Shown here piece by piece: positions 13,534 to 48,026 of a stretch of 64,000 nucleotides of DNA; the stretch's first letter is position 1; each line of letters opens with the position of its first letter. Under the pieces are notes generated by a model, which worked only from the letters and a program-made list of their open reading frames with translations, had not been told where the DNA came from and did no database searches. The stretch is from a bacterium. GTDB lineage: Bacteria > Patescibacteriota > Minisyncoccia > JAHIHE01. The stretch lies in assembly GCA_030693205.1 (NCBI GenBank), contig JAUYBG010000005.1:9017-73016 (forward strand), written 5' to 3'. Made by a program: the position numbers and the translations under genes.

Positions 13534-13562
13534 TTGACATTAATGCTTTAATCGTTTATAAT
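13534..13562 (+). promoter_or_regulatory. Consensus sigma70-type promoter (TTGACA, 17-nt spacer, TATAAT) driving the RRM protein gene through a long 5' UTR
   Basis: TTGACA at 13534-13539, spacer 17 nt, TATAAT at 13557-13562; the ATG of the downstream gene is at 13706. Confidence 0.6.
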
Positions 13563-13705
13563 TGTTTTTGTAAGTTTCGAAGGGTTTTCTTTCCTTATAT
13601 AAAACAATTAAGTATAAGTTAAGTTGAGCCGTTTGGCTCCTGAAAGCAAATCCCAGAGAAGTAGTCGACTTGCAAAATTAATTAGTTTATATAAGGAAAA
13701 AACAC

Positions 13706-14044
13706 ATGGCAAAGAAATTATATGTGGGCAGCTTATCATATAGCACCACAGATGACGCTTTGAAAGCGACTTTTTCCGCAGCTGGAACAGTAACATCAGC
13801 CTCAATTATCATCGATAAGATGAGTGGCCGATCAAAAGGTTTTGGTTTCGTGGAAATGAGCTCCGACGAAGAAGCAGTCAAAGCTATTGAAATGTTCAAT
13901 GGCAAAGAAGTTGATGGCAGAACCATTATCGTTAACGAAGCGAGACCGATGACCGAGAGACCACCCCGCGCAGGCGGACGTGGCGGATTCGGCGGCGGTA
14001 ATCGCGGCGGCGGACGAGGTTTTGGCGGAAACGACAGATTCTAA
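13706..14044 (+). CDS. Glycine-rich RNA-binding protein (single RRM)
   Basis: RNP-2 LYVGSL and RNP-1 KGFGFVEM motifs; C-terminal RAGGRGGFGGGNRGGGRGFGG tail. Confidence 0.85.
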   Translation: MAKKLYVGSLSYSTTDDALKATFSAAGTVTSASIIIDKMSGRSKGFGFVEMSSDEEAVKAIEMFNGKEVDGRTIIVNEARPMTERPPRAGGRGGFGGGNRGGGRGFGGNDRF

Positions 14045-14229
14045 TTATAAAAATATTTAGAAAACAAGAAGACGGCTTTCGGGCCGTTTTTTTGTTTTTA
14101 GTTGAACAAAAGCGTTTTTTTTGATAAAATTAAAGGATGTTAGCGTTAATGACAAATTTTCAATGTCAAATGACAATTCAATATCAAAGCTCAAATATCA
14201 AAAGTAATAAATAAATTAAGGAATAATTC

Positions 14230-24541: not shown

Positions 24542-24569
24542 TTGACATTTGTATAATATCTGCTATAAT
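24542..24569 (+). promoter_or_regulatory. Sigma70-type promoter (TTGACA, 16-nt spacer, TATAAT)
   Basis: TTGACA at 24542-24547, TATAAT at 24564-24569, upstream of the CDS at 24628. Confidence 0.5.
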
Positions 24570-24627
24570 GAAAAGTCTTTCAAAACGATCATAAAATTGT
24601 AATTTAAAAGACAAAACAGGAGGGAAT

Positions 24628-25002
24628 TTGGTGAGAAAAAAGAATGGGTATAAGTATAGGCCACTATCGACACATGTACTATTTGATGAAGCGACTGTCG
24701 TCGCAATCGGTCAGATGTTTAATGAGGAGGATCCCGATCAAATAAAATTTTTTGAGAAAAATATTCGCGCGTATTATTCAGAGCAAGATTGTCCTCTTGT
24801 GCTGGAAGCAATGCAAGAAGTAAAAAATGAAACAAAGGGAACAGATATAAAGAGAGTGGAATTTATTGCAAGCGTGAATAGGCGGTATGAAAAAAAGCTT
24901 GAAAAAAGGATAAAAGAAAGAAATAGAAGAAAAAATTTAAAAAAACGCAGAGCAAAGAAGAGAAAAGGCGGGGCAAAAAGCCTCAGTAGTCAAAACCTTT
25001 GA
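24628..25002 (+). CDS. Hypothetical protein with a strongly basic C-terminal tail
   Basis: GTG start preceded by AGGAGGG; C-terminus RIKERNRRKNLKKRRAKKRKGG. Confidence 0.4.
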   Translation: MVRKKNGYKYRPLSTHVLFDEATVVAIGQMFNEEDPDQIKFFEKNIRAYYSEQDCPLVLEAMQEVKNETKGTDIKRVEFIASVNRRYEKKLEKRIKERNRRKNLKKRRAKKRKGGAKSLSSQNL

Positions 25003-27012: not shown

Positions 27013-27990
27013 ATGATTTGGCTTTACATCCTAATTTTTATAATTTCTTGCATTCTGCTTTATTTTTCCGGAGAACTTTTAGTTGGAAGCCTGACAAGAA
27101 TAGCCAAATTCATGGGCTGGAAGGAATTCGTAGTCGCTTTTTTATTAATGGCTTTTGCAAGTTCCCTGCCTAATCTTTTTGTTGGTGTTTTTTCGGCTTT
27201 GCACGGAGTCCCCCAGCTTTCTTTCGGCGATGTTTTGGGAAATAATATGGTAGCTATGACCTTGGCCGTAGGTTTGGCAGCTTTCTTTTCCCATACCGGA
27301 ATTCCAGGCAATAGCCAAACGATTCAAACAACGGCGGTTTTCGTTTTAGTCTCTGCGATTCTGCCTTTGCTTTTGTCGGCGGACGGAATCCTTTCAAGGG
27401 TTGATGGCGTTTTACTCATATCTTTTTTTGTGTTTTACCTTTATTGGCTCTTTTCAAAAAAAGAAAGATTTTCACGAGTTTATAACGGCGAACATAGCGC
27501 TTGTATTTACTCAAAGGTTTTAAGTATTTACAAAGACTTGGGCAGGGTAATTATAGCGGCAGTTTTCATAATAATTGCGGCCGAAGGAATCGTAAAATCA
27601 GCTGCTTTTTTTTCCTTTACTTTTAATTTGCCGCTGATTTTAATCGGAATTTTTATTACCGGACTGGGAAATGCCTTGCCGGAAATATATTTTACCGTAG
27701 CTTTGGCTAAGAAAGGGCATAACTGGATGATTTTGGGAACTTTGATGGGTGCTGTTATAATACCCGCTACTTTAGTTTTAGGAATTGTCTCTTTAATACA
27801 TCCGATTGAAATTATTAATTCTTCATACGGAGTTATCGCAAGATTATTTTTAATTATTGCGTCTTTATTCTTCTTTTTCTCGGTGCTAACCGGAAAAAGA
27901 ATTACGAAAAAGGAAGCTTTGGTTTTACTGGGACTCTACTTTATTTTTATCTTAGTCGCAATCGCCGTAGGAACATATGAAAATATTTAA
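27013..27990 (+). CDS. Sodium/calcium exchanger family membrane protein (CaCA, YrbG-like)
   Basis: Two alpha-repeat signatures GNNMVAMTLAVG and GNALPEIYFTVALAKKG. Confidence 0.8.
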   Translation: MIWLYILIFIISCILLYFSGELLVGSLTRIAKFMGWKEFVVAFLLMAFASSLPNLFVGVFSALHGVPQLSFGDVLGNNMVAMTLAVGLAAFFSHTGIPGNSQTIQTTAVFVLVSAILPLLLSADGILSRVDGVLLISFFVFYLYWLFSKKERFSRVYNGEHSACIYSKVLSIYKDLGRVIIAAVFIIIAAEGIVKSAAFFSFTFNLPLILIGIFITGLGNALPEIYFTVALAKKGHNWMILGTLMGAVIIPATLVLGIVSLIHPIEIINSSYGVIARLFLIIASLFFFFSVLTGKRITKKEALVLLGLYFIFILVAIAVGTYENI

Positions 27991-29332
27991 TAGCGCTAAG
28001 ACAGAGCGTTTTATCTGCGATTTTCACATTCATTCCAAATATTCCCGCGCTACCAGCCGCGATATGGAGCCCGAAGCGTTGGCTTATTGGGCCGCGATTA
28101 AAGGCATTAAAGTAGTGGGAACCGGGGATTTTACGCATCCGGTTTGGATCAAGGAATTGAAAGAGAAACTGGAGCCGGCGGAAAAGGGGCTTTATAAATT
28201 GAAAGACGCGAAGCTTGCGATAAAAAATAATTTTAATAATGCTAAAATTCCCGCGGAAGTAGTTTCGAAGATCCAAGCTTCCGCTCTTGGCGAGATAAGA
28301 TTTATTCTGACCGCGGAGATTTCCAGTATTTATTCGAAGGGCGGCAAAGTGCGGCGGGTTCATAATATTGTTTTTGCGCCTTCTTTTGAAATAGCCGATA
28401 AGATAAACGAGAAATTGAACACTATTGGAAATTTGCATTCGGACGGACGGCCGATCTTGGGACTAGACTCGAAGGATCTTTTAAAAATTATTTTAAATAT
28501 TTCCACTTCCGCGGTGCTGGTTCCCGCGCATGCCTGGACTCCTTGGTTTTCGGTTTTCGGTTCCAAATCCGGTTTTGATTCACTGGAAGAATGTTTTGAC
28601 GAATACACAAAATTTATTTTTGCCGTTGAAACCGGATTATCCAGCGATCCGGCGATGAATTGGCGCTTGAGCAAGCTTGATAATATTTCGTTGATCTCCA
28701 ATTCCGACGCGCATTCTCCGGAAAATTTGGGACGAGAAGCCAATATTTTTGAAGGAGAGGTGGTCGATTATTATTCAATAATGAGCGCGATAAAGAATAA
28801 AGGGGAATCTGACGTTAAAAAAACCTTACCGTTGAAATTTGTTTCGACTGTCGAGTTTTTTTCCGAGGAAGGGAAATATCATTATGACGGTCATCGGCTT
28901 TGCAAGATTTCCATGAGTCCCGAGGAAACCAAAAAGGCGAAAGGCATTTGTCCGGTTTGCGGAAAACCGCTGACCATAGGCGTGATGTACCGGGTGGATG
29001 AATTAGCTGATAGAGCGATTGGCGGAAAACCGGCTAAATTCGTGCCTTATAAAAATTTAATTCCGCTGAAGGAGATCATTGCGGATGCTATGGGCGTGGC
29101 CAAAGGCGCAAAAAAAGTAAATGAAGAATATTTTAAACTAATAAGCCATTTCGAGACAGAGTTTGCCATTCTGCTTGACGTTGATATTAAAGAGATAGCC
29201 AAAAATACGACTTCTTTGATTGCGGAAGGAATTGAGAAAATGAGAGCCGGACATGTGCAGCTTGTACCAGGTTTTGACGGAGAGTATGGAAAAATCAAGA
29301 TTTTTGACGGTAAGAAAAAGGAAAAACAATAA
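27977..29332 (+). CDS. PHP-domain nuclease with C-terminal zinc ribbon, endonuclease Q-like
   Basis: N-terminal PHP signature DFHIHSKYSRATSRDM...GTGDFTHP (compare EndoQ DLHIHS...GTGD); C-terminal CPVCGKPLTIGV Zn-binding motif; size about 450 aa. Confidence 0.5.
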   Translation: MKIFNSAKTERFICDFHIHSKYSRATSRDMEPEALAYWAAIKGIKVVGTGDFTHPVWIKELKEKLEPAEKGLYKLKDAKLAIKNNFNNAKIPAEVVSKIQASALGEIRFILTAEISSIYSKGGKVRRVHNIVFAPSFEIADKINEKLNTIGNLHSDGRPILGLDSKDLLKIILNISTSAVLVPAHAWTPWFSVFGSKSGFDSLEECFDEYTKFIFAVETGLSSDPAMNWRLSKLDNISLISNSDAHSPENLGREANIFEGEVVDYYSIMSAIKNKGESDVKKTLPLKFVSTVEFFSEEGKYHYDGHRLCKISMSPEETKKAKGICPVCGKPLTIGVMYRVDELADRAIGGKPAKFVPYKNLIPLKEIIADAMGVAKGAKKVNEEYFKLISHFETEFAILLDVDIKEIAKNTTSLIAEGIEKMRAGHVQLVPGFDGEYGKIKIFDGKKKEKQ

Positions 29333-29364
29333 AGTTTGGTATAAAGCATAAATCCGCGCAGGGC

Positions 29365-29393
29365 TTGACAAGAAAATTAATTATTGCTATACT
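29365..29393 (+). promoter_or_regulatory. Consensus promoter (TTGACA, 17-nt spacer, TATACT)
   Basis: TTGACA at 29365-29370, TATACT at 29388-29393. Confidence 0.55.
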
Positions 29394-29399
29394 TTTTAA

Positions 29400-29500
29400 C
29401 GCTAACCACTTAGTAATCACAAAGGTAATCACAGGTGGCTTACTGCTTAGTTTTTGGCAGGTTCTTCCGCCAACACTCCTCCCTTTGTGATTCTTTTTTA
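29400..29500 (+). ncRNA. Candidate small RNA or leader: long-range stem (AATCACAAAGG / CCTTTGTGATT) enclosing a sub-hairpin, ending in a U-tract
   Basis: Transcript predicted from the promoter above; 11-bp complementary arms at 29415-29425 and 29482-29492, followed by TCTTTTTTAAAA. Confidence 0.35.
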
Positions 29501-29536
29501 AAATCAAGCTTAAATAAGCTTGGTGTGTGGTCAGGT

Positions 29537-29613
29537 GGGCGATAGTTCGTAATTTCTAATGATACTTTGCCGGGATGCAAAGATTAAGATACGAACTATA
29601 CGCCCTTTTAATT
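29537..29613 (+). ncRNA. Second structured element: long imperfect stem GGGCGATAGTTCGTA / TACGAACTATACGCCC with internal CTTTGC/GCAAAG hairpin, then TTTTAATTTT
   Basis: Seen directly in the sequence between the first structure and tRNA-Arg. Confidence 0.3.
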
Positions 29614-29654
29614 TTGCCAAAAAAGCTTAAAATGGTAGAATTGATGTTAGAGAA

Positions 29655-29729
29655 AGCTCTCGTAGTTCAATGGATAGAATGCGAGCCTCCGAAGCTTGTG
29701 ATACAGGTTCGATTCCTGTCGAGAGCACC
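29655..29729 (+). tRNA. tRNA-Arg (anticodon CCG), CCA encoded
   Basis: Manual fold: acceptor GCTCTCG/CGAGAGC, anticodon loop CTCCGAA (CCG), T-arm ACAGGTTCGATTCCTGT, discriminator A, then CCA. Confidence 0.85.
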
Positions 29730-29745
29730 AATTAAATAATTTTTA

Positions 29746-30738
29746 ATGACCGATTTTATGCAAATTATTAAACCAAAAAAACTTCAAAAAGGCGATATGG
29801 TGGCAATTGTTTCGCCGTCCGGAGGAGTGTCAGAAGAATTAAAAAATCAATTTAATAGTGGCATTAAATTTCTGGAAAATTTGGGTTTAAAAGTAAAAAT
29901 TAGCAAGAATGCTTTAGGTAGATATTATTATTCTTCAGGAACGACAGAAGCGCGATTGAGTGATTTTCACGAAGCATTTAGGGATAAAGAGGTTAAGGCG
30001 GTAATAATGTCTATTGGAGGAACAACAGCTAATAATCTTTTGGACGGATTGGATTTTGATTTGATCAGAAGAAACCCAAAAATATTTTTAGGGATCAGTG
30101 ATGGTACAACCTTATTGAATCCGATATTTTCTAAAACAGGTTTAATTACTTATCATGGGCCTGATCTAATTTTTACTTTCGGCTTGCCAGTGTCGCCGGT
30201 AATCAAAGAAAACTTAGTTAAAACTTTATTTGAAGGAAAAGGAGGGCAATTATCGCCGAATCCGGAATGGAAGGGTCTGGATAAACTGAATGAAAATGAA
30301 AAGTATCAAGGGTGGCGAACAGTGCGGCCGGGCAAAGCGAATGGGCGATTAATCGGCGGGAATATTGCTTGTCTTGAAAATTTGGATAATACCGAATTTA
30401 GACCGGATTATAAAAAAGTGATTTTGTTTTTGGAAGCGTATATGGTTAAAATCGAAGATATTGATATGACACTTACGCACTTTCGCCAGGCGAAAATTTT
30501 TGATGAAATCAGTGGTTTGATTCTTGGTCAATTTTATGGTTCGCATATGGCGGACAAAAAGCAAGACAGGGAAGTGCGGGATGTAATTTTAGAAGTTACA
30601 AAAAACTATTTTTTTCCGATTTTGGAAGTCGGAGAAATTGGGCATAATGTAGAAAATTATATTATACCTATCGGTTGCCGGGCAACTGTTGATGCCGAGC
30701 GGAAATATTTTTCAATTGACGAAGAAACGGTTATATAA
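29746..30738 (+). CDS. LD-carboxypeptidase (peptidase S66; LdcA/MccF family)
   Basis: KGDMVAIVSPSGGV, catalytic Ser region ILGISDGTTLL, C-terminal His/Glu region; 330 aa. Confidence 0.8.
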   Translation: MTDFMQIIKPKKLQKGDMVAIVSPSGGVSEELKNQFNSGIKFLENLGLKVKISKNALGRYYYSSGTTEARLSDFHEAFRDKEVKAVIMSIGGTTANNLLDGLDFDLIRRNPKIFLGISDGTTLLNPIFSKTGLITYHGPDLIFTFGLPVSPVIKENLVKTLFEGKGGQLSPNPEWKGLDKLNENEKYQGWRTVRPGKANGRLIGGNIACLENLDNTEFRPDYKKVILFLEAYMVKIEDIDMTLTHFRQAKIFDEISGLILGQFYGSHMADKKQDREVRDVILEVTKNYFFPILEVGEIGHNVENYIIPIGCRATVDAERKYFSIDEETVI

Positions 30739-30762
30739 GCAAATAGTTTAAACAATAAATCT

Positions 30763-31302
30763 ATGGCGGGAAAAATCAAAAAAATATCTTCAGAAGTAGA
30801 TTATAAGACCCCATATTTTAAAATTGTTAAAAGCGGTTTTTTGATTCCTGGGCAAAAAAAGCCGATTTATTGGTATCTTTTGAAACGCGCAAGTTACGCC
30901 GCGATTTTAGCGAAGGAGGGAAATTATTTTTATATGGTGGAGACATATAGGTTTGCGGTGGAGAAAAAAATGCTGGAATTTCCGGCAGGAGTTATTGAAA
31001 AAGGAGAAACGCCGCGGGTGGCGGCAAAAAGAGAGCTTGGCGAAGAAGCCGGCATTGTTGCCAAAAAATTTACTTTTTTGGGCTGGTATTACGCTTTTGT
31101 CGGAATGTCAGATAGCAAATCTTATGTTTTTTTGGCTGAAAATTTAAGTTTTACAAAACAAAAACTGGACGAAAGCGAATATGGTATGAAAGTGAAAAAA
31201 ATAAAAATTTCCGATGTGGAAAATTTAATAAGAAAAGGAAAAATCCGGGGCGAGCATAGTATAAATAGTTTTTATATTTATAAGCTAAAAAATAAAAAAT
31301 AA
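30763..31302 (+). CDS. NUDIX hydrolase
   Basis: Nudix box FPAGVIEKGETPRVAAKRELGEEAGI. Confidence 0.8.
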   Translation: MAGKIKKISSEVDYKTPYFKIVKSGFLIPGQKKPIYWYLLKRASYAAILAKEGNYFYMVETYRFAVEKKMLEFPAGVIEKGETPRVAAKRELGEEAGIVAKKFTFLGWYYAFVGMSDSKSYVFLAENLSFTKQKLDESEYGMKVKKIKISDVENLIRKGKIRGEHSINSFYIYKLKNKK

Positions 31303-47595: not shown

Positions 47596-48026
47596 GGGTG
47601 GAGATGGCGGGAATTGAACCCGCGTCTAGAAAGAAAACCTTAAAATTATCTACTGATGTAGTCTGTTCGTTGTTTTTCGGATCTTTGGTTAGTGAACAAA
47701 CAAGAATACAAAGATCTTATGCTCGGTCTTTTCGGTGAAAGCTCGGAGCCGGGAGAATCCACCTATCCTAATTAATGACACCAGATAACCGACTATTAGG
47801 AGTTATCGGTCTGATGGGTCGTGAACCTTCAACTTGGCTTGTGGCCGAGTAATATTAGGCTACGGCGGCAGCAAAGCTAGGAACTGCAAAAGCTTGCGCT
47901 ACTGCAGACTTAACTTTACCAATAAGTGTTTTGGCACTTAAGTTTGATTCTAAAAGTTTTACGAGGTTTTAGAATACTCGATCAGCAATTTTAAGTTTCA
48001 GCTTCCTATCGAAGCCGGTCATCCCC
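47596..48026 (-). ncRNA. ssrA: tmRNA (SsrA)
   Basis: 5' end GGGGAUGACCGGCUUCGAUAGG (minus strand from 48026). tRNA-like 3' domain with T-arm CGGGTTCAATTCCCG and acceptor CAUCUCC-A-CC giving a G3:U70 pair (the Ala identity element). Internal tag ORF reading ...GCA GUU CCU AGC UUU GCU GCC GCC GUA GCC UAA (AVPSFAAAVA*). Located immediately downstream of smpB. Confidence 0.8.

What the first reader, a model, noticed from the sequence alone, without database searches (positions are those of the whole stretch)
29365..29640. Perfect promoter followed by two structured RNAs ending in U-tracts, immediately upstream of tRNA-Arg
TTGACA-17-TATACT (29365-29393) would start transcription near 29400. What follows is an 11-bp long-range stem (29415-29425 / 29482-29492) ending in a U6 run. 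Then comes a HindIII-site palindrome AAGCTTaaatAAGCTT, then a second roughly 75-nt imperfect hairpin (29537-29605) plus a U-run, then tRNA-Arg. No ORF is present. These could be one or two small RNAs co-transcribed with, or attenuating transcription into, the tRNA.
Basis: seen in the sequence. Interest (0 to 1): 0.5.

Follow-up and report, generated by a model that had tools for sequence, protein, structure and literature searches.

The report
Clade-specific structured small RNA gene
The stretch between an endonuclease Q gene and tRNA-Arg in this Patescibacteria (CPR) genome is one independently transcribed, about 215-nt structured non-coding RNA that matches no described RNA family, is kept in seven related metagenomic loci, and has no known function.

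Summary
This includes the near-consensus promoter (TTGACA-17-TATACT with an extended TG), the 11-bp long-range stem, the HindIII palindrome, the 69-nt hairpin and the U-runs.

Comparison with seven homologous loci shows one RNA, not two (window about 29398-29615). The 5' end pairs with the segment just before the 3' hairpin (P1). P1 encloses a variable stem domain (P2), an exposed C/U-rich tract plus U-run, and a small hairpin (P3, the palindrome). A long hairpin (P4) follows, with an A/U-rich asymmetric internal loop and an invariant YGGGA apical motif, then U-tracts.

Synonymous sites of the flanking gene are near saturation among these relatives. Even so, the promoter, the RNA 5' end, the apical motif and all helices persist, with compensatory changes.

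tRNA-Arg has its own conserved promoter, so the RNA is not a tRNA attenuator.

No Rfam family matches the RNA in any of the eight copies. It is absent at the same locus in other close relatives and in all more distant ones.

Function is inferred only. The most likely role is a trans-acting regulatory RNA, acting through base-pairing or protein binding.

It is a new, narrow RNA family of an ordinary kind, and of moderate interest.

The parts
29365..29393 (+). Sigma-70-type promoter of the RNA: -35 TTGACA (29365-70), 17-nt spacer, TG (29385-86), -10 TATACT (29388-93)
   Evidence: It scores 11 of 12 plus TG. The same promoter, followed by a T-rich discriminator, precedes the RNA in L054, L055, L056, L058, L059, L074 and L076. 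W and L055 are identical at 41 of 43 positions from -35 to +11 by hand count, while 4-fold degenerate sites of the flanking gene are only 50% identical.
29398..29615 (+). The inferred single RNA, about 215 nt, from the presumed start (A at 29398/29399) to the U-tract after P4
   Evidence: It folds at -75.3 kcal/mol, z = -6.46. The same architecture is predicted independently in eight homologues. The ends are inferred from the promoter and the U-tract, not measured.
29399..29409 (+). P1, 5' strand (core ACCAC at 29405-29409)
   Evidence: It pairs with 29527-29536 in the minimum-free-energy fold. Pair probabilities are 0.97-1.0. Its position is conserved in 8 of 8 copies. Compensatory changes occur at five or more columns of a hand alignment.
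29415..29492 (+). P2 domain: an 11-bp stem (29415-25 / 29482-92) enclosing a variable region with the sub-hairpin UGGCAGG/CCGCCA
   Evidence: (I1). Most homologues (clearly L054, L055, L056, L058, L059) have a long stem at the same place with an unrelated sequence.
29476..29486 (+). C/U-rich tract CUCCUCCCUUU, the same sense as the 16S anti-Shine-Dalgarno sequence
   Evidence: Every homologue has at least one C-rich pyrimidine tract in the middle domain. Its predicted unpaired probability is 0.5-0.96, against a whole-RNA mean of about 0.4.
29494..29499 (+). Internal U6 run
   Evidence: Sequence. A U-rich run is present at this point in all homologues, but in them it does not directly follow a stable stem. 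It is therefore probably a single-stranded linker, or at most a weak, leaky terminator in this genome.
29505..29522 (+). P3: a small hairpin, the HindIII palindrome CAAGCUUA-AA-UAAGCUUG
   Evidence: (I6). A structurally equivalent palindromic hairpin with a different sequence is seen in L058 and L074 (GAGCUC aaa GAGCUC), L059 and L054. It is absent in L055, L056 and L076.
29523..29536 (+). P1, 3' strand (core GUGGU at 29527-29531), abutting P4
29537..29605 (+). P4: a long hairpin with a GCG/CGC base, a 15-bp lower stem, an A/U-rich asymmetric internal loop and a 6-bp upper stem
   Evidence: It folds at -31.4 kcal/mol, z = -5.96. Homologous hairpins give z = -4.1 to -5.8. A covariance model built only from L055 and L056 finds the window hairpin at E = 4e-5. 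In the model-fitted alignment 94% of cells pair, 9 pairs changed on both sides, 0 of 500 shuffles reached this, and slid controls gave 38-52%.
29571..29576 (+). Conserved apical loop motif CGGGAU (YGGGAU in seven copies, UGGGAG in L074)
   Evidence: GGGAT is invariant in the alignment of seven copies; the eighth, L074, reads GGGAG. The motif is predicted to be unpaired.
29606..29615 (+). U-tract UUUUAAUUUU after P4, the presumed intrinsic termination site
   Evidence: Sequence. U-rich tracts follow P4 in every copy whose 3' end is held. L056 and L076 add a second, classical terminator (ACCGGUUAAACCGG plus U8).
29614..29641 (+). Separate promoter of tRNA-Arg (TTGCCA-16-TAGAAT with TG). A neighbour of the RNA, not part of it
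   Evidence: It is conserved in L058, L059, L056 and L076, and its -10 is kept in the RNA-less L075.
29656..29730 (+). tRNA-Arg(CCG), the downstream neighbour

Best explanation
The interval holds one independent gene for a structured non-coding RNA of about 215 nt, belonging to a so far undescribed family restricted to a narrow Patescibacteria clade.

**Shown or strongly supported**
- A strong sigma-70-type promoter sits at the right distance upstream.
- All eight copies share one architecture. P1 closes a variable P2 domain, an exposed C/U-rich tract with a U-run, and usually a small P3 hairpin.
- A long P4 hairpin with an invariant YGGGA apex follows, then a U-tract.
- These features are maintained by selection although neutral sites are saturated.
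- The RNA is independent of the tRNA-Arg promoter.

**Inferred**
- The RNA is abundant and acts in trans as a regulator.
- Most probably the single-stranded C/U-rich tract pairs with G-rich ribosome-binding regions of a subset of mRNAs.
- Alternatively or additionally, the YGGGA loop is presented to a target or an RNA-binding protein.
- P1, P2 and P4 would serve as scaffold, stabiliser and terminator.

I put about 0.85 on 'one real, selected, independently transcribed structured RNA'. I put only about 0.3 on the specific Shine-Dalgarno-pairing mechanism. The overall confidence given is a compromise between the two.
For: - **Promoter.** It scores 11 of 12 plus TG, and promoters of this quality are rare in the window.
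- **Folding.** z = -6.46 for the whole RNA and -4.1 to -6.0 for P4 in seven copies.
- **Homologues.** Seven loci from other samples carry the same promoter, 5' end, P1, C/U tract, P4 and YGGGA(U) apex.
- **P1.** Its position is conserved in 8 of 8 copies. Pair probabilities are mostly 0.9 or higher. A hand alignment shows compensatory changes.
- **P4.** A model built from L055 and L056 alone finds the window, L076 and L054. Pair counts are 94% paired with 9 double changes, and 0 of 500 shuffles reached this.
- **Neutral background.** Only 37-62% of 4-fold degenerate sites in the flanking gene are identical between subgroups. The RNA bodies are about as divergent, so the retained helices and motifs reflect selection.
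- **Strand.** The promoter and U-tracts are on the + strand. The helices contain many G-U pairs. The model scores 85.9 bits on the + strand of L056 against 21 bits on the - strand.
- **No known family, no coding.** No Rfam family matches any copy, and there is no conserved peptide in any frame.
- **C/U tracts.** They are predicted to be exposed. Promoter-proximal genes in the window do carry GGAGG-type ribosome-binding sites.
Against: - There are no expression data. The transcript ends are inferred.
- The family was found only next to the endonuclease Q gene in relatives with 79% or higher protein identity. It is missing at that locus in equally close relatives (L002/L057, L073, L075), so it is dispensable or has moved elsewhere in those genomes.
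- Most genes around the locus have no Shine-Dalgarno sequence. This weakens a general anti-SD mechanism.
- The position of the C/U tract relative to P2 differs between subgroups.
- Matches to the complement of the apical loop are no more frequent in the window than chance.
- The covariation evidence rests on eight sequences in about four subgroups. It uses a hand alignment for P1 and a model-fitted alignment for P4.
- P1 in the window copy is the weakest of the eight (duplex shuffle p = 0.31).
Confidence: 0.6

Rival explanations
1. There are two separate small RNAs. The first, about 100 nt, ends at the P2 stem plus U6 (29499). The second comprises the palindrome and the long hairpin.
For: In this window the 11-bp stem is followed after one base by U6. 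The isolated halves each fold well, z = -4.5 and -5.7. P1 is weakest in this copy.
Against: - No promoter-like site lies between 29400 and 29614.
- The P2 stem encloses 56 nt and has an A/U-rich base, so it is a poor terminator, and the scan did not call it.
- In the homologues the U-run does not directly follow a stem.
- The P1 helix spanning both halves is conserved in 8 of 8 copies with compensatory changes.
Confidence: 0.12
2. The RNA is a cis-acting leader of tRNA-Arg. It is co-transcribed with the tRNA and either attenuates or times its expression, or is merely a precursor segment removed by RNase P.
For: - The RNA always lies immediately upstream of tRNA-Arg(CCG) on the same strand.
- The U-tract after P4 in the window is interrupted (UUUUAAUUUU), so some read-through is plausible.
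Against: - The tRNA has its own conserved promoter.
- L056 and L076 insert an extra strong terminator between the RNA and the tRNA promoter.
- Close relatives express the same tRNA from the same -10 element without the RNA (L075; L002/L057).
- No T-box or other leader family matches.
Confidence: 0.08
3. The RNA binds or sequesters a protein. Its conserved YGGGA hairpin loop, pyrimidine tract or both are the binding site of an abundant RNA-binding protein. That protein could be, for example, the RRM-type protein encoded at 13707-14045 or a CsrA-like protein. The rest of the RNA is scaffold.
For: - The most conserved elements are a GGA-containing apical loop and U/C-rich single strands. These are typical protein-recognition features.
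- The promoter is strong.
- An RRM protein gene with a 12 of 12 promoter is present in the window.
Against: - There is only one conserved GGA loop per RNA, whereas CsrA sponges have many.
- No CsrA, Hfq or KhpA homologue is found in any sequence held. This is weak evidence, since only a small part of each genome was available.
- Nothing links the RNA to the RRM gene.
Confidence: 0.2
4. The interval is functionless debris left by recombination at the tRNA-Arg hot spot, such as a scar of an integrative element that happens to fold.
For: - tRNA-Arg fragments and allele swaps in L003, L056, L059 and L075 show that the locus is recombination-prone.
- The RNA is present or absent in a patchy way among close relatives.
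- There are no repeats of it elsewhere in the window, and no phage match.
Against: - The promoter, 5' end, apical motif and four helices are retained while synonymous sites are near saturation.
- Debris would not keep compensatory pairs or a consensus promoter.
- No integrase or transposase lies nearby.
Confidence: 0.05

Closest known systems
Multi-hairpin regulatory RNAs of Gram-positive bacteria that expose C-rich (UCCC/CCUCC) motifs to pair with Shine-Dalgarno regions: S. aureus RNAIII, RsaE/RoxS, Listeria LhrC (Geissmann et al. 2009, PMC2790875; Sievers et al. 2014, PMC4132741)
   Same: It has its own promoter and an intrinsic terminator. It folds into several stable hairpins, with C/U-rich tracts predicted to be unpaired. 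It encodes no peptide.
   Different: There is no sequence or Rfam relationship. The organism is a Patescibacteria in which most nearby genes lack a Shine-Dalgarno sequence. The position of the C/U tract is not fixed. The most conserved element is a YGGGA loop, which these families do not have. No target is known.
6S RNA (Rfam RF00013)
   Same: It is driven by a strong housekeeping-type promoter, is about 200 nt long and is highly structured. P4 resembles a closing stem, an asymmetric bubble and an upper stem.
   Different: The 5' end pairs with an internal segment, not with the 3' end. The molecule is branched rather than a single rod. P4 is only 70-95 nt. There is no RF00013 match even at E <= 10. 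It is dispensable in close relatives.
Small RNAs linked to tRNA genes or operons, such as the E. coli 3'ETS-leuZ sponge and sRNAs encoded next to tRNA integration sites (from my own knowledge)
   Same: It lies directly beside a tRNA gene at a recombination-prone locus and may be partly co-transcribed with the tRNA.
   Different: It lies upstream of the tRNA, with its own promoter and terminator. It is not a spacer or trailer of the tRNA precursor.

Membership tests
Any Rfam 15 family | Covariance-model match at or near the family's gathering score | tested here: not met
   The only gathering-score matches in the window are two tRNAs and a tmRNA. There is no match inside the RNA (29394-29615) at E <= 10 apart from one chance-level snoRNA match on the minus strand, SNORD57 at 14.6 bits against a gathering score of 47. 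There is no credible match inside the RNA in seven homologous loci at E <= 10; the only overlap is a minus-strand lncRNA match in L058, PART1_3 at 21 bits against 40.
6S RNA | A single irregular hairpin closed by pairing of the 5' and 3' ends, with a large central bubble | tested here: not met
   In all eight folds the 5' end pairs with an internal segment, and a separate 3' hairpin follows.
Bacterial SRP (4.5S) RNA | Helix 8 with a GNRA tetraloop and the conserved symmetric and asymmetric loops; a match to RF00169 or RF01854 | tested here: not met
   The apex is YGGGAU in a 6-14-nt loop, and no SRP motifs are seen by eye. There is no Rfam match.
T-box leader | Stem I with a specifier loop, the T-box antiterminator sequence, and a position upstream of an aminoacyl-tRNA synthetase or amino-acid gene | tested here: not met
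   There is no RF00230 match. The element is followed by a terminator, a separate promoter and a tRNA gene, not an ORF.
TIGR array (tigRNA precursor; Faure et al. 2025, PMC12045711) | Five to fifteen tandem units of about 36 nt with alternating edge and loop repeats, next to a gene for a Nop-domain Tas protein | tested here: not met
   The only repeats are a 9-nt direct repeat in two copies and a 10-nt, two-copy tandem. The neighbours are endonuclease Q, LD-carboxypeptidase, NUDIX and radical SAM genes.
C-rich-motif, Shine-Dalgarno-targeting sRNAs (functional class) | A C-rich motif displayed unpaired in loops or linkers | tested here: met
   Pyrimidine tracts with three or more C are present in all eight copies. 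Their mean unpaired probability is 0.5-0.96.
C-rich-motif, Shine-Dalgarno-targeting sRNAs (functional class) | Complementary G-rich ribosome-binding sites on target mRNAs that are repressed by pairing | tested here: inconclusive
   Some strongly promoted genes carry AGGAGG, but seven of seven genes around the locus have no Shine-Dalgarno sequence. No specific target stands out, and repression cannot be tested here.
CsrA/RsmA-sequestering sRNAs (CsrB/RsmZ type) | Many GGA motifs in hairpin loops, and a csrA gene in the genome | tested here: not met
   There is one conserved GGA loop per RNA. No CsrA homologue is found in the window or in any locus held. Whole genomes were not available.
Intrinsic (Rho-independent) terminator, for P4 plus the U-tract | A stable stem-loop immediately followed by a U-run | tested here: met
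   P4 folds at -31 kcal/mol and is followed by UUUUAAUUUU. U-rich tracts follow P4 in the copies whose 3' end is held. P4 is much longer than a usual terminator, and the simple scan did not call it.

The most novel reading that the evidence does not exclude
The RNA is the abundant RNA subunit or decoy of a ribonucleoprotein specific to this Patescibacteria lineage. It might, for example, partner the RRM-type RNA-binding protein or act as a functional stand-in for a global regulator such as 6S RNA. In that reading the invariant YGGGA loop is the protein handle. The hypervariable P2 domain would carry lineage-specific specificity. That would make it the first described regulatory RNP of CPR bacteria.
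Probability: 0.1. Interest if true: 0.7.

Novelty: new member of a known kind. Interest (0 to 1): 0.4.

Why it matters
These organisms have tiny genomes and few recognisable regulators.
- A strongly promoted, structurally conserved RNA with no Rfam counterpart gives a concrete candidate for study.
- It could be checked in existing groundwater or sediment metatranscriptomes, and a covariance model of it could annotate further MAGs.
- Its narrow distribution and patchy loss suggest an accessory regulator rather than a universal housekeeping RNA. That limits its general importance.

Tried and rejected
1. **Rfam.** Searches at gathering score and at E <= 10 on the window and on seven homologues found nothing in the RNA.
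2. **BLAST and nhmmer.** The element was searched against 52 endonuclease Q loci from GTDB species representatives and against the rest of the window. No other copy was found.
3. **Metagenome pattern scan.** It gave 13 hits, all unrelated. It did not even recover the JGI contigs known to carry the RNA, so that collection seems not to hold them. In hindsight, using the scan on the endonuclease Q protein would have yielded more homologues.
4. **Covariance model R2 of P4.** It was searched over 63 sources (450 kb). Only the known copies scored well. Hits in L032 and L048 lie inside coding sequence and were rejected. L058 and L059 score only 10-13 bits even with filters off.
5. **MAFFT and RNAalifold.** These could not align P4 across subgroups. 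I therefore used a model-fitted alignment and a hand alignment.
6. **Phage database.** No similarity was found.
7. **Minus-strand gene preceded by GGAGG.** The ORFs differ completely between L058, L059 and the window (checked by hand), and no peptide is conserved in any frame.
8. **TIGR array, 6S, SRP, T-box, CsrB-like.** All rejected; see the membership tests.
9. **Pseudoknot between the YGGGA loop and the C-rich tract.** A 9-nt complement exists in L059 only, so it is not conserved (checked by hand on the sequences).
10. **Targets of the apical loop.** The complement ATCCCRG occurs in the window no more often than chance.

Full report
**Setting.** The window comes from a Patescibacteria (CPR) genome.
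- The gene upstream of the finding (27977-29332) belongs to the endonuclease Q / TIGR00375 family. Its best relatives are named Patescibacteria, Portnoybacteria, Nealsonbacteria and Wildermuthbacteria.
- The finding occupies the 323-nt gap between this gene and tRNA-Arg(CCG) at 29656-29730.
- The same sequence is present on a 24-kb Logan contig, L001.

- The promoter TTGACA-17-TATACT with an upstream TG is the best promoter-like site in 28000-31000. Only about ten sites of this quality exist in the 64 kb. The three others I inspected precede a gene.
- The 11-bp inverted repeat (29415-25 / 29482-92), the palindrome (29505-12 / 29515-22) and the core of the long hairpin are all reported by the repeat finder.
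- The stretch 29398-29612 folds at -75.3 kcal/mol, z = -6.46. The long hairpin alone gives z = -5.96.
- No Rfam family matches the interval, even at E <= 10.

**Homologues.** I fetched contigs that encode close relatives of the endonuclease Q protein. Seven of them carry a recognisably homologous element between that gene and tRNA-Arg: L054, L055, L056, L058, L059, L074 and L076. They share:
- the consensus promoter followed by a T-rich discriminator;
- a conserved 5' end (A-W-Y-R-C-U-R);
- a variable middle with C/U-rich tracts and a U-run;
- a long 3' hairpin whose apical loop begins YGGGA(U);
- U-tracts after the hairpin.

Plain BLAST and nhmmer had not found these copies because the bodies are almost unalignable.

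The element is absent at the same locus in several other relatives:
- L002/L057, where the stop codon lies 15 nt before the tRNA;
- L073, which has no tRNA there;
- L075, where the stop codon is directly followed by the tRNA -10 element and a tRNA identical to the window's;
- all relatives with 72% or lower protein identity.

**One RNA, not two.**
- Independent folding of each homologue gives the same plan.
- In all eight copies the best duplex partner of the first 20 nt anywhere in the molecule is the segment immediately before the 3' hairpin.
- These P1 pairs have ensemble probabilities mostly of 0.9 or higher.
- In a hand alignment, nine core columns are almost entirely canonical. Changes on both sides occur at five or more columns, for example G-C to A-U and C-G to U-A.
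- In the homologues the internal U-run does not directly follow a stable stem, so it is not a conserved terminator. In this window it may at most cause partial termination.
- The palindrome is a small hairpin (P3). It recurs with different sequences in L054, L058, L059 and L074.

**The 3' hairpin (P4) is a functional module.**
- All copies fold significantly better than shuffles.
- All share a GCG/CGC base, a 12-16-bp lower stem of unrelated sequence, an A/U-rich internal loop that is long on the 5' side, an upper stem and the YGGGA(U) apex.
- A covariance model built only from L055 and L056 retrieves L076 (E = 2e-11), the window (E = 4e-5) and L054 (E = 0.02).
- On the model-fitted four-sequence alignment 94% of cells pair and 9 pairs changed on both sides. 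None of 500 shuffles reached these values, and slid registers gave 38-52%. This alignment leans towards the structure and has few sequences.
- L056 and L076 have an additional classical terminator after P4. P4 is therefore more than a terminator.

**Selection.**
- Identity at 4-fold degenerate sites of the flanking gene is only 0.37-0.62 between subgroups. The RNA bodies are equally divergent.
- Against this near-saturated background, several features are retained: the promoter (41 of 43 positions identical between the window and L055 by hand count), the 5' end, the apex and the helices.
- This argues for purifying selection on a structured + strand RNA.
- The strand is supported by the promoter, the U-tracts, many G-U pairs, and the much lower model score on the minus strand.
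- No peptide is conserved in any frame.

**Relation to the tRNA.**
- The tRNA promoter is conserved. It persists in L075 without the RNA.
- Extra terminators insulate the two units in L056 and L076.
- The RNA is therefore not an attenuator of the tRNA, although some read-through is possible.
- The locus is recombination-prone. There are tRNA-Arg fragments and allele swaps in L003, L056, L059 and L075. This probably explains the patchy loss of the RNA.

**Function (inferred).**
- The strong promoter suggests an abundant RNA.
- The best-conserved single-stranded elements are C/U-rich tracts of the same sense as the anti-Shine-Dalgarno sequence, predicted to be exposed, and the YGGGA loop.
- Some strongly promoted genes in the window carry AGGAGG sites, but most genes near the locus have none.
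- I therefore favour a trans-acting regulator, by analogy with C-rich-motif sRNAs of Gram-positive bacteria (PMC2790875, PMC4132741). This carries low confidence.
- A protein-binding role, for example with the RRM protein at 13707-14045, is a serious rival.
- 6S, SRP, T-box, CsrB-like and TIGR-array identities were tested and not met.

**Verdict.** This is a real, selected, single structured sRNA gene of an undescribed, narrowly distributed family. It is an ordinary kind of object in an under-studied phylum, its function is unknown, and it is of moderate interest.

Noticed in passing
L003 4337-4360; L056 2024-2100; L059 4229-4294; L075 about 1885-1902: The tRNA-Arg(CCG) locus is a recombination hot spot in this clade. 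5' or 3' fragments of a tRNA-Arg gene lie beside the intact gene. In L056 the fragment has a 43-nt hairpin insert in the D-loop. Two tRNA-Arg alleles (GTCCTCGTAG... and GTCCCTATAG...) replace each other between close relatives, each preceded by a shared leader tttacNccKtatat. This suggests repeated integration or gene-conversion events by an unidentified element.
   Followed up: partly
window 13534-14045: A perfect 12 of 12 promoter (TTGACA-17-TATAAT) lies directly after tRNA-Ser. It is followed by a 5' UTR of about 140 nt and then a gene for an RRM-type, glycine-rich RNA-binding protein (MAKKLYVGSLSY...). This protein is a possible partner for pyrimidine-rich RNAs.
   Followed up: no
window 24542-24993: Another 12 of 12 promoter with TG is followed by a strong AGGAGGG ribosome-binding site and a small, very basic ORF upstream of the seryl-tRNA synthetase gene. 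This shows that strong Shine-Dalgarno sites exist in this genome, although most neighbouring genes lack them.
   Followed up: no
window 47597-48026 (-): The tmRNA is unusually long (430 nt) and has a 26-residue tag, AKTLIGKVKSAVAQAFAVPSFAAAVA.
   Followed up: no
L058 2326-2431: A long, near-perfect hairpin lies in the gap between the seryl-tRNA synthetase and endonuclease Q genes. It shows up only as sub-threshold matches to plant microRNA precursor families. Its nature is unknown.
   Followed up: no
L058 4136-4147; the same motif in L059 and L074: In the L058/L059/L074 subgroup the 3' strand of P1 contains AAGGA(G/C)...AUG GUU UGG UAG. This is a ribosome-binding-like site followed by a 3-codon ORF. 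It is absent in the window copy and is probably coincidental.
   Followed up: partly
L002 4762-4862; L057 4243-4343: In the relatives that lack the RNA, the LD-carboxypeptidase gene downstream of the tRNA is truncated after about 33 codons. This is further evidence of rearrangement at this locus.
   Followed up: no
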